A stretch of DNA of 64,000 nt from NCBI GenBank assembly GCA_023249095.1, contig JAHFDK010000011.1, positions 1,165 to 65,164 on the forward strand. The letters run 5' to 3'. The stretch is from Candidatus Rokuibacteriota bacterium. GTDB lineage: Bacteria > Methylomirabilota > Methylomirabilia > Rokubacteriales > CSP1-6. Below are positions 1-1,111 of this stretch, piece by piece; within the stretch, counting starts at the first letter, position 1, and each line of letters opens with the position of its first letter. The notes under the pieces were generated by a model. That model had not been told where the DNA came from. It was given only the letters and a program-made list of their open reading frames with translations, and did no database searches. A program made the position numbers and the translations under genes.

Positions 1-108
1 CTCGCCGGCATCCTCTATGCGCTGCTGCGCGATGGCAGCATGTTCGAGCCCCAGCGCGTTCGACATCCTGGTCCCACTGCGGCGGCGGCTGCCCTCGTGG
101 GCATGTGA
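1..108 (+). CDS. IS110-family transposase/recombinase, C-terminal 35 aa (partial, 5' end outside window)
   Basis: Frame 1 reads LAGILYALLRDGSMFEP...GM*, the typical IS110 C-terminal helix (RKLAxILyAmlRDG). It is followed by a long structured non-coding end. Confidence 0.7.
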   Translation, partial: LAGILYALLRDGSMFEPQRVRHPGPTAAAAALVGM

Positions 109-148
109 ACGAAACGACGCCGCCCTGACGATGCGGGCCCTGGTTTCT

Positions 149-334
149 CGCAGGTTCGATGGGTGGGTGAGCGCGAATGTTGCCTTGGCCGCCGTTGCAG
201 GGCCGCCGCGTAGATGGCGCCCCCACCCTTCGACTCCACTCCTGCGCCGACGAGCTCAATGGGCTCGTCCTTGATGAGCGCGAATAGAAGGCTGACAGAA
301 CCTCGCGAGATCGGCCCACTGTCACAGGCCAGCC
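149..334 (+). ncRNA. Putative IS110 bridge/seek RNA
   Basis: Nested stems 149-154/241-246 and 156-167/222-233 (11/12), hairpins 249-269 and 293-298/319-324, and an 11-nt motif TGAGCGCGAAT repeated at 168-178 and 275-285. Each motif copy runs into a sequence matching the element's right junction. Confidence 0.55.
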
Positions 335-429
335 AGGACACGGAACAGATCTCAAACCACGGAGGGAGGGAACGCGCTACGACTTGACACGGCCAGCCGC
401 TTCATAGAAGGCGACATAAACGCCCTTCT

Positions 430-603
430 GCTTATCGGGTTGACTCCGAACGGTACAGCATGTCGTAGGTCGTGGGGCCGTGGACGCCCGCGGCGAGGCC
501 AAGGAGGGTCTGGAAGGCCGCCATCGGGGTTCGCCGACGGTTGAAGCGAAAGGCGAACTCGTCGAGGTAGGCCTGGAGGTGATCGTGCCCGACGCCGTGG
601 TGG
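430..603 (-). mobile_element. IS1595-family transposase 3' remnant with probable terminal repeat
   Basis: Reads HHGVGHDHLQAYLDEFAFRFNRR...YDMLY*, the IS1595 C-terminal signature HLQxYLDEFxFRFNRR. It ends in GGAGTCAACCCGATAAGC (447-430), which resembles IS1595-type ends. Confidence 0.75.
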
Positions 604-675
604 GCCCGCGACTTCACCGCTGGCAGGCTGACGCCGAGCGTCTCGGCGATCTCGGGGTTCGACACGCCTTCGACA
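604..675 (-). pseudogene. ECF sigma factor region-4 HTH fragment
   Basis: VEGVSNPEIAETLGVSLPAVKSR matches the sigma-70 r4.2 pattern (EIAE.LG.S...VKSR). Boundaries approximate. Confidence 0.55.
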
Positions 676-803
676 GCGCCGAGCGCCTCGAGCACCTGAG
701 CGAGGCCCAGGCGGGCGCGCATGTACGGGCGCGCCTCGACGAGGCTCCAGAAGCGTCCCGCCTCCTGCTCGAAGAGCTGCGGACCGAGGGCGCGTTCGCC
801 GGC
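676..803 (-). pseudogene. Fragment of an unrelated conserved hypothetical (TPR-like) gene
   Basis: AGERALGPQLFEQEAGRFWSLVEARPYMRARLGLAQVL resembles the FW...ETRPYMRAR motif of TPR/SEC-C-type hypotheticals. Recalled similarity only. Confidence 0.4.
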
Positions 804-1111
804 GGGCACCGAGCTCTTCCGCCACCTCGTTCCATTGCTTGACCTTCGCGATCTCGCTCTGCCGCCAGGTGGTGGCGGCGCGGCCGAAGTCGTTGTGGAC
901 CCCGATCCCGATGATGGCGAGACCGAGATCGGCGGCGGTCCGACGGAGCGCCCGGAGGTAGGCGGGGCGCGTCTGCGGAAAGTGGATGTCTTGCAGCTCC
1001 GCGCCCTGGAACCCCGAGCACGGTCGCGCAGTGCTGGAGGAAGCCGGTCTGGTCCATTGTCCTCACGTCGAAGGAGCGATTGAAGCAGCCGCATATGCAC
1101 CCGAGCTTCAT
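804..1111 (-). pseudogene. Sugar phosphate isomerase/epimerase (xylose-isomerase-like TIM barrel), 5' fragment, frameshifted and truncated
   Basis: ATG at 1111 overlaps the upstream stop (ATGA). Reads MKLGCICGCFNRSF...VLG, then after removing one base at 1010-1011, VQGAELQDIHFPQTRPAYLRALRRTAADLGLAIIGIGVHNDFG...VAEELGA, then breaks at ~804. Confidence 0.7.

What the first reader, a model, noticed from the sequence alone, without database searches (positions are those of the whole stretch)
109..417. IS110 3' non-coding tail looks like a bridge RNA, with two guide-like segments matching the element's own junction
Seen: after the transposase stop there are ~300 nt with nested stems (149-154/241-246, 156-167/222-233, 249-269, 293-298/319-324) and the motif TGAGCGCGAAT twice (168, 275). 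The second copy runs into ATAGAAGGC (284-292), identical to 404-412 at the element end. The first runs into ATGTTGCCTT (177-186), the reverse complement of 408-417 at 9/10 with one G.U pair. GGCCAGCC occurs at both 327-334 and 391-398, and TTGACA sits at 384-389. Known: IS110/IS1111 recombinases use a non-coding RNA with separate target- and donor-binding loops, and circle junctions form a promoter. Inference: this is a two-loop bridge RNA with a family-specific motif, and its guides can be read directly from the sequence.
Basis: partly seen in the sequence, partly recalled or inferred. Interest (0 to 1): 0.75.

Follow-up and report, generated by a model that had tools for sequence, protein, structure and literature searches.

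The report
Bridge RNA of an IS1111-type element
The 300 bases after the truncated transposase gene encode the guide ("bridge" or "seek") RNA of an IS1111-group IS110-family insertion sequence; its guide segments can be read off and track the insertion sites in more than 100 relatives, so this is a correct call of an already known kind of system.

Summary
Window 1-108 is the last 35 codons of an IS110-family recombinase gene. About 160 relatives were found; full-length ones carry DEDD_Tnp_IS110 plus Transposase_20.

Window ~146-310 is a structured RNA conserved in 70 of 78 relatives' tails. The repeated GAGCGCG is a conserved stem-and-linker module placed just 5' of a guide.

- 177-186 is the right-target guide. 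It is complementary to 408-417.
- 284-292 is the left-donor guide. It has the same sense as 404-412.

Guides track the flanks across relatives (0 of 5000 permutations reach the observed match). In 22 of 25 distinct metagenomic insertion sites with the same guide, the flank matches at 9 or 10 of 10 positions.

- 391-405 is the sub-terminal inverted repeat.
- TTGACA sits at a fixed distance from it in 55 of 60 relatives.
- The crossover is at AG 409-410.

A long-range helix, 147-155/300-309, is conserved instead.

This architecture is published (Durrant 2024, Siddiquee 2024), so the finding is a new member of a known kind.

The parts
1..108 (+). 3' end of the recombinase gene: last 35 codons plus TGA. 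The gene is cut by the window start.
   Evidence: Translation. It is 83% identical to residues 317-352 of the L033 recombinase. Full-length relatives carry DEDD_Tnp_IS110 and Transposase_20 and match NF033542 at 264.8 bits against a cut-off of 140.
146..310 (+). Structured core of the bridge RNA. It is closed by the long-range helix P0, 147-155 with 300-309 (C304 bulged).
   Evidence: The minimum-energy fold of 145-311 reproduces the model (z = -2.62). P0 is 74% paired across 65 sequences, and 7 of its 9 pairs show compensatory changes.
156..233 (+). Target-binding hairpin. The outer stem is 156-167/222-233. It is extended by G171-C174 pairing with G217-C220, with A170 bulged. The inner hairpin is 187-204.
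   Evidence: GCGC:GCGC is 100% paired, with the compensatory change GAGCACG to GGTGCC in 7 sequences. The inner stem GGC/GCC changes to GAC/GTC in 7 sequences.
169..175 (+). Motif copy 1 (GAGCGCG): the stem-and-linker module immediately 5' of the right-target guide.
   Evidence: Invariant or nearly invariant in alignment A1. Present in 70 of 78 tails.
177..186 (+). Right-target guide AUGUUGCCUU. Positions 177-183 pair with right-target 417-411 (U181 opposite G413 is a wobble), C184 and U185 pair with core G410 and A409, and U186 pairs with A408, the last donor base (handshake-like).
   Evidence: Family-wide mean match is 8.10 of 11 against 5.26 +/- 0.21 permuted (0 of 5000). In 22 of 25 distinct metagenome sites with the same guide the match is at least 9 of 10.
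205..216 (+). Left-target guide GCCGCGUAGAUG (plus G217). It has the same sense as left flank, core AG, then the first bases of the left end (ATGG).
   Evidence: It matches the left junctions of relatives at 8.24 of 11 against 5.67 +/- 0.22 permuted (0 of 5000). The window's own left junction lies outside the window.
234..243 (+). Candidate right-donor guide, complementary to the start of the left end. It is discontinuous.
   Evidence: Weak signal: 6.18 against 5.72 +/- 0.11 permuted (0 of 5000). Not testable for this copy.
244..281 (+). Inner stem-loop of the donor-binding multiloop. G244-C247 pairs with G278-C281 (invariant), enclosing hairpin 249-269.
   Evidence: Hairpin 249-269 has compensatory changes in 7 of 8 pairs. 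The 244-247/278-281 pairing is 99.6% paired but invariant, so it is predicted only.
276..282 (+). Motif copy 2 (GAGCGCG), immediately 5' of the left-donor guide.
284..292 (+). Left-donor guide AUAGAAG. It has the same sense as 404-410 (right-end terminus ATAGA plus core AG). G291 and C292 equal the first two target bases, 411-412 (handshake-like).
   Evidence: Family-wide mean match is 7.57 of 10 against 6.12 +/- 0.20 permuted (0 of 5000). The G/C change ATAGAAG to ATACAAG tracks the right-end terminus.
384..389 (+). TTGACA, an outward-facing -35-like hexamer.
   Evidence: TTG[AC]C lies 21-22 nt before the end of TTCA in 55 of 60 relatives. The -10 would be completed only by the left end in a circle (inferred). 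No complete promoter is found in the integrated form.
391..405 (+). Right sub-terminal inverted repeat GGCCAGCCGCTTCAT.
   Evidence: In relatives the left end carries the inverted copy ATGAAGCGGCTGGCC.
406..410 (+). Terminal extension AGA (406-408) and the crossover dinucleotide AG (409-410). This is the right boundary of the element.
   Evidence: An uninterrupted target next to occupied sites places a crossover of at most 2 nt at offsets 4-5 after TTCA (L063/L065; Gemmatimonadota subgroup). Homology to L033 stops at 407, where another element is inserted. By analogy for the window.
411..430 (+). Right half of the target site (GCGACATAAACGCCCTTCTG).
   Evidence: Similar flanks at independent insertions: L038, L039, L043-L045, L057, L146, L151, L156.

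Best explanation
Window 1-410 is the right end of an IS1111-group, IS110-family insertion sequence, and its 3' non-coding region encodes the element's bridge RNA (seekRNA).

The RNA spans about 146-310 on the + strand and is probably read through from the recombinase gene. Helix P0 closes it. Inside lie a target-binding hairpin with an internal loop and a donor-binding multiloop. Each guide follows a conserved helix end, and the repeated GAGCGCG is two of those modules.

Pairing scheme:
- In the target loop, 177-186 pairs with the top strand of right target plus core.
- In the target loop, 205-216 pairs with the bottom strand of left target plus core, and runs on into the first bases of the left end.
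- In the donor loop, 284-292 pairs with the bottom strand of the right-end terminus plus core, and runs on into the target.
- About 234-243 pairs with the top strand of the left-end start.

The recombinase then exchanges strands at an A(A/G) core, here AG 409-410. This joins the circularised element to the target without a duplication.

In a circle, TTGACA at 384-389 would sit 17 nt before GAAG|AT, a -10-like hexamer completed by the left end.

Shown here: conservation, stem covariation, and guide-to-flank tracking. Inferred from IS621, ISEc11 and ISPa11: RNA expression, protein binding, the chemistry, and the junction promoter.
For: Relatives:
- Five relatives came from a two-motif scan.
- The protein scan found 160 relatives and kept the best 80 loci.
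- A further 42 metagenome stretches came from a scan with the guide sequence.
- Recombinase family membership is shown.
- 70 of 78 tails carry two GAGCGCG copies.

Structure:
- On a MAFFT alignment not fitted to any structure, 78.1% of cells are paired against at most 45.6% when partners are slid. There are 185 double-change cells against 84 +/- 7 in shuffles (0 of 500).
- The fold of 145-311 gives the same model.

Guides:
- Very different guides match their own flanks, for example L046, L062, L063, L076 and L106.
- 22 of 25 distinct sites with the window's guide match at 9 or 10 of 10 positions.

Literature:
- IS1111 elements carry the bridge RNA in the right end, often with donor guides in a multiloop (PMC11208160).
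- In IS1111 seekRNAs the top-strand match lies 5' of the bottom-strand match, and the two overlap in the target (PMC11187229).
- Guide strand rules and handshake bases for IS621 are in PMC11208158.
Against: - Only 35 codons of the gene and no left end lie in the window. The left-target and right-donor guides therefore cannot be checked for this copy, nor whether the copy is intact.
- No RNA data are available. There is no Rfam match, and no promoter or terminator in 1-700.
- The 244-247/278-281 pairing is invariant, so it has no covariation support.
- The right-donor guide signal is small.
- The permutation tests do not correct for relatedness of the elements.
- In the Gemmatimonadota subgroup the donor core (AG) and target core (AA) differ, which a strict shared 2-nt core does not predict.
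- A few relatives sit at flanks that do not match their guide: L033, L041, L048, L058.
Confidence: 0.9

Rival explanations
1. Only the first hairpin (156-233, 78 nt) is the functional RNA: a short seekRNA that selects the target. The donor ends would then be recognised by the protein through the inverted repeats. On this reading the second GAGCGCG region and its match to the right-end terminus are not a working donor loop.
For: The predominant RNAs co-purified with IS1111-type transposases were 82-96 nt and carried the two target matches (PMC11187229). Donor-side signals here are weaker. The 244-247/278-281 pairing has no covariation.
Against: Region 234-310 is as conserved as the first hairpin. 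Helix P0 and hairpin 249-269 both show compensatory changes. The left-donor guide changes together with the right-end terminus (ATAGAAG/ATACAAG, AGAAAG, AGAGAG). Its two 3' bases follow the target in several elements, for example L033 with TC. Long seekRNAs and donor loops are described for the family.
Confidence: 0.07
2. The region is only the DNA end of the transposon. The internal copies of junction sequence would be protein-binding or recombination sites acting as DNA, and no RNA is involved.
For: No expression data and no promoter or terminator match. L071 shows recombination at the DNA that encodes the donor guide.
Against: Stems keep pairing through compensatory changes, including G-U pairs. 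One guide is antisense and the other sense to the junction, and wobble positions are tolerated (U181 opposite G413). This fits RNA-DNA pairing and not repeated protein sites. The recombinase family is experimentally RNA-guided.
Confidence: 0.02

Closest known systems
Bridge RNAs and seekRNAs of IS1111-group elements: ISPa11, ISAzs32, ISCARN28 (Durrant et al. 2024, PMC11208160) and ISEc11, ISKpn4, ISPst6, ISPa11 (Siddiquee et al. 2024, PMC11187229)
   Same: - The RNA is encoded 3' of the recombinase gene, in a long right end.
- The element has sub-terminal inverted repeats.
- The top-strand-complementary target guide lies 5' of the bottom-strand one, and the two overlap at the crossover.
- The donor guides sit in a multiloop.
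- The target lies at the edge of a dispersed repeat.
   Different: - No close cultured or named relative was found. The best plasmid hit is 39% identical.
- Relatives at 33-39% identity lack the paired GAGCGCG modules, so this is a separate RNA subfamily of soil and groundwater lineages (Rokubacteria/Methylomirabilota, Gemmatimonadota, Acidobacteriota, Myxococcota).
- Nothing here was tested experimentally.
IS621 bridge RNA (IS110 group; PMC11208160, PMC11208158)
   Same: - Two binding modules each have two guides that read opposite strands on either side of a short core.
- Extra handshake bases match the partner DNA.
- A conserved helix end with a bulged A and a G linker precedes the guides. 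This is an analogy drawn from the paper's text.
- The right-donor guide is discontinuous.
- A promoter may be rebuilt at the circle junction.
   Different: - The RNA lies at the other end of the element, and the guide order within each loop is reversed.
- The donor module is a multiloop that carries the target hairpin as a branch.
- The core is A(A/G), not CT.
- The inverted repeat is 15 bp, not 2-3 bp.
- The sense-strand guides run 2-4 nt past the core into the partner DNA.
ISPpu9 and its Ssr9 small RNA in Pseudomonas putida (PMC12288879)
   Same: An IS110-family element inserted in dispersed repeats, with an RNA gene downstream of the transposase gene.
   Different: Known to me only from the abstract listed. 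No sequence comparison was made.

Membership tests
IS110 family, IS1111 group insertion sequence | DEDD (RuvC-like) recombinase with the Transposase_20 C-terminal domain | tested here: inconclusive
   The window holds only the last 35 residues, which give no Pfam hit on their own. They are 83% identical to the C-terminus of L033. The full L033 protein passes PF01548, PF02371 and NF033542.
IS110 family, IS1111 group insertion sequence | Sub-terminal inverted repeats of 7-17 bp with short terminal extensions | tested here: inconclusive
   The right copy, GGCCAGCCGCTTCAT (391-405), and a 3-5-nt extension are present. The left copy lies outside the window. It is present as ATGAAGCGGCTGGCC in relatives.
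IS110 family, IS1111 group insertion sequence | The long non-coding region lies downstream of the recombinase gene | tested here: met
   There are 302 nt between the stop codon (108) and the element end (410). Left ends in relatives are about 100 nt.
Bridge RNA / seekRNA | Conserved secondary structure with loops flanked by stems | tested here: met
   Covariation is seen in P0, the outer stem, the GCGC stem, the inner hairpin and hairpin 249-269.
Bridge RNA / seekRNA | Two target guides complementary to opposite strands of the insertion site, covarying with it | tested here: met
   For the right-target guide. For the left-target guide (relatives only).
Bridge RNA / seekRNA | Donor guides complementary to the element's ends | tested here: met
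   The left-donor guide is clear. The right-donor guide is weak and discontinuous.
Bridge RNA / seekRNA | The RNA is made, binds the recombinase and is required for, and reprograms, recombination | not testable with these tools
   No expression or biochemical data. Rfam 15 gives no match.

The most novel reading that the evidence does not exclude
This clade may exchange strands differently from IS621.

In the Gemmatimonadota subgroup the donor core is AG and the uninterrupted targets have AA. Every occupied site seen has AG at the left junction and AA at the right junction. That would mean only the first core base must be shared, and that the crossover falls inside the dinucleotide.

In addition, the sense-strand guides extend 2-4 nt into the partner DNA, which would be a handshake on the other strand.

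Separately, an IS110-group element appears to be programmed against the right junction of this IS1111-type clade (L032, L041).
Probability: 0.25. Interest if true: 0.55.

Novelty: new member of a known kind. Interest (0 to 1): 0.35.

Why it matters
Bridge RNAs are being developed as programmable recombination tools, and most work rests on IS621.

This clade offers well over a hundred natural variants in which all four guides, the core, the inverted repeat and the cognate flanks can be read from sequence. The set includes 25 distinct sites for a single guide. That makes it a usable natural data set for the pairing rules of the less-studied IS1111 architecture: mismatch and wobble tolerance, handshake length, and the core requirement.

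For annotating this genome, the result says that 1-410 is the end of a mobile element and that 411 onward is its target. It does not change what is known about how such elements work.

Tried and rejected
Searches that gave nothing or little:
- Rfam, at gathering and at E up to 10: no relevant match.
- Fold of the whole 109-417: not better than shuffles.
- An exact 21-mer in the species-representative genomes: none.
- blastn against plasmids: none.
- The 35-residue fragment was too short for the search for related loci and the search for homologous proteins. tblastn with it gave only E >= 0.5 hits to IS110 genes.
- The two-motif scan returned 32 loci, of which 27 were tandem repeats that contain the 11-mer by chance and 5 were true relatives.
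- A neighbouring gene led only to a 6.8-kb contig that stops about 200 nt short of the element. The full copy and its left junction were therefore not recovered.
- No uninterrupted copy of the window-type target was found in the held loci.

Ideas rejected:
- The target is the end of the IS1595-like remnant next to the element. No such gene lies beside any other insertion.
- The short 16-codon frame in the right flank is a gene. It is part of a conserved ~125-nt repeat.

No covariance model was built, because the direct tests were sufficient.

Full report
**Observation.**

- TGAGCGCGAAT is at 168 and 275.
- ATAGAAGGC is at 284 and 404.
- 177-186 is the reverse complement of 408-417 at 9 of 10 positions, with one G-U pair.
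- The four complementary segment pairs are present, as are GGCCAGCC at 327 and 391 and TTGACA at 384.

Frame 1 of 1-108 reads LAGILYALLRDGSMFEPQRVRHPGPTAAAAALVGM*. The gene is cut by the window start.

Taken alone, the window gives little statistical support.
- The motif with one mismatch is not enriched.
- The 309-nt tail folds no better than shuffles.
- Rfam has nothing.

**Relatives.**

Exact and blastn searches with the window's DNA failed, and the 35 residues were too short for the protein tools.

A scan of species-representative genomes for the motif twice, 85-115 nt apart, gave 32 loci. Most were tandem repeats. Five were true homologues, each with a 347-352-aa ORF directly upstream.
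- That protein carries DEDD_Tnp_IS110 and Transposase_20.
- It matches NCBIfam's 'IS110 family RNA-guided transposase' at 264.8 bits against a cut-off of 140.

Used as a query, it found 160 relatives, of which the best 80 loci were kept, at 53-100% identity. They are mostly in Rokubacteria/Methylomirabilota, Gemmatimonadota, Acidobacteriota and Myxococcota MAGs.

The window's 1-407 is 89.5% identical to the element in a Rokubacteria MAG (L033), and the 35 residues are 83% identical to its C-terminus. No other IS110-type gene lies in the window.

**The motif and the structure.**

In 70 of 78 tails, GAGCGCG occurs twice, 95-118 nt apart.

I aligned 65 distinct tails with MAFFT (alignment A1). 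RNAalifold paired the GCGC of motif 1 with an invariant GGCGCC. That pairing has a compensatory change (GAGCACG with GGTGCC) in seven sequences. A three-pair inner hairpin changes from GGC/GCC to GAC/GTC in seven.

Reading the alignment, I added a long-range helix, 147-155 with 300-309, which closes the whole RNA.

The resulting model was tested on this alignment, which was not fitted to any structure. Its helices, in window coordinates:
- P0
- 156-167/222-233
- 171-174/217-220
- 187-190/201-204
- 244-247/278-281
- 249-256/262-269

Results of the test:
- 78.1% of cells are paired, against at most 45.6% when partners are slid.
- There are 185 double-change cells, against 84 +/- 7 in shuffles (0 of 500).

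Folding 145-311 alone returns the same architecture, with z = -2.62.

- 156-167/222-233 is supported.
- 249-269 is supported.
- 149-154/241-246 is 63.5% paired with almost no compensation, and it competes with P0.
- 293-298/319-324 is 40.9% paired, which is the level of the slid controls.

The pairing of motif 2 with 244-247 is invariant and therefore only predicted.

**Guides.**

The bases after motif 1 differ widely among relatives, and in each they are the reverse complement of the DNA just beyond the right end. Examples:

| Locus | Guide | Flank |
|---|---|---|
| L046 | caatcgttcc | aggaacgatt |
| L062 | tgaaaggggc | gcccctttca |
| L063 | taagcagttt | aaaactgctt |

The 3' side of the same loop (window 205-216) has the same sense as the left junction. 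Examples: L063 CAACCAATTGG, L088 GAAGCAAATGG, L057 CGCATAGATGG.

The bases after motif 2 have the same sense as the right-end terminus and change with it: ATAGAAG, ATACAAG, ACAGAAAG, ACAGAGAG.

With one representative per distinct guide, permuting flanks among elements never reached the observed match:

| Guide | Observed | Permuted | Permutations reaching observed |
|---|---|---|---|
| Right-target | 8.10 of 11 | 5.26 +/- 0.21 | 0 of 5000 |
| Left-target | 8.24 of 11 | 5.67 +/- 0.22 | 0 of 5000 |
| Left-donor | 7.57 of 10 | 6.12 +/- 0.20 | 0 of 5000 |
| Candidate right-donor, before 244 | 6.18 | 5.72 +/- 0.11 | 0 of 5000 |

The right-donor effect is small and its pairing is discontinuous. These tests do not remove the effect of shared descent.

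An independent check does not depend on that. A metagenome scan for the window's exact guide found 42 elements. Among 25 distinct insertion sites, 22 read AAGGCAACAT at 9 or 10 of 10 positions in the same register.

**Ends and crossover.**

The right end carries GGCCAGCCGCTTCAT (391-405). Relatives carry the inverted copy near the left end.

Uninterrupted targets were found beside occupied ones.
- The target of L063, TACTCAACCAAACTGCTTG, is intact in L065. Compared with both junctions, it allows a shared core of at most two bases, AA. The core sits 4-5 nt after TTCA on the right and directly before the 6-nt extension on the left.
- At the same positions the window clade has AG on both sides, which places the core at 409-410.
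- The Gemmatimonadota subgroup has four intact targets, GCGCNTAAGCTGCGG. There the donor core is AG and the target core AA, and all occupied sites have AG on the left and AA on the right. I cannot explain this with a strictly shared dinucleotide.

- Segment 177-186 covers right target 417-411, core 410-409 and A408.
- Segment 284-292 covers right-end terminus 404-408, core 409-410 and target 411-412.

They coincide on one stretch because the right junction is left-donor, core, right-target.

**Other details.**

- TTG[AC]C lies at a fixed 21-22 nt from the end of TTCA in 55 of 60 relatives.
- With a 17-nt spacer, the -10 position would read GAAGGC in the integrated copy. It would read GAAGAT across a circle junction. 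A junction promoter is therefore plausible but not shown.
- The consensus scan finds no promoter or terminator in 1-700.
- The GGCCAGCC at 327 is not conserved.

**Comparison with what is known.**

- Durrant et al. predicted bridge RNAs in the right end of 93% of IS1111-group elements. They noted that the donor-binding bases often sit in a multiloop.
- Siddiquee et al. showed seekRNAs from the 3' region of four IS1111-type elements. In these the top-strand match lies 5' of the bottom-strand match, and the two overlap in the target.
- The IS621 structures define which strand each guide reads, the handshake bases, a discontinuous right-donor guide, and conserved bulged A and linker G residues before the guides.

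The window's RNA fits all of this. The GAGCGCG module, with A170 and A277 bulged and G175 and G282 after the stem, resembles those conserved residues. That resemblance is an analogy, not a test.

**Verdict.**

The finding is real and correctly interpreted. It is a previously undescribed subfamily of a known system.

Limits:
- The gene and the left end of this copy are outside the window.
- Nothing shows that the RNA is made.
- The right-donor guide and the exact crossover are inferred.

Noticed in passing
L032, + coordinates about 801-2466 (the same contig as L033); also L041: A second element of the IS110 group lies exactly between ...GCTTCATAG and AAGTCAACATGAACG, which is the cognate right target of the IS1111-type element. 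It has a ~260-nt 5' non-coding region and a DEDD_Tnp_IS110 plus Transposase_20 ORF that is frameshifted near its end. AG flanks it on both sides, and its 5' region contains TTTCATAGCGT, its own left junction. L041 has the same insertion start at the same position. It looks like an IS110-type element aimed at this clade's right junction.
   Followed up: partly
Right flanks of L034, L120, L121, L124, L129, L130, L139, L141, L143, L145 and others: Many insertions lie about 9 nt inside the left edge of a conserved ~125-nt dispersed repeat (AGGCAACATGAACG.CCTCCGG...GTGACATAA..TGCCAGACTC.GAC...CCAGGAGCCG...CACAGC). The repeat contains a 16-codon pseudo-ORF, MNALRRRWPRPW.PS. Beyond the repeat the flanks differ.
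   Followed up: partly
window 432-1100, - strand: Directly beside the target half-site lies a mosaic pseudogene. It consists of the last ~25 residues of an IS1595/ISXO2-type transposase (below the curated cut-offs) joined to a piece resembling sigma-70 region 4. No other insertion of the clade has such a neighbour.
   Followed up: yes
L074, L079, L082, L084, L085, L089, L093, L099, L109 against intact sites L082:533, L085:3304, L089:142 and 714: In this Gemmatimonadota subgroup the intact target has AA at the crossover while the donor guide and the left junction have AG. All occupied sites show AG on the left and AA on the right. L089 has one A fewer at its right junction.
   Followed up: partly
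L071, right junction: The right end ...TTCACAGAAG is followed by AAGGATGACAACCATCTCGC, a copy of the element's own donor-guide region. This suggests recombination with the DNA that encodes the guide.
   Followed up: no
L053, about 2367-2385: Recombinase homology stops at residue 295 and is joined to ..CCTGCG AGTCGACATGAACG, a target-like right flank. This appears to be an internal deletion that reaches the junction.
   Followed up: no
L114, L115, L116 (Sphingomonas, Bradyrhizobium and Dinoroseobacter plasmids): IS110-family genes 33-39% identical to the clade's recombinase have long 3' non-coding regions with a TTGAC near the end, but no pair of GAGCGCG motifs. They presumably carry a different bridge-RNA subfamily.
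   Followed up: partly
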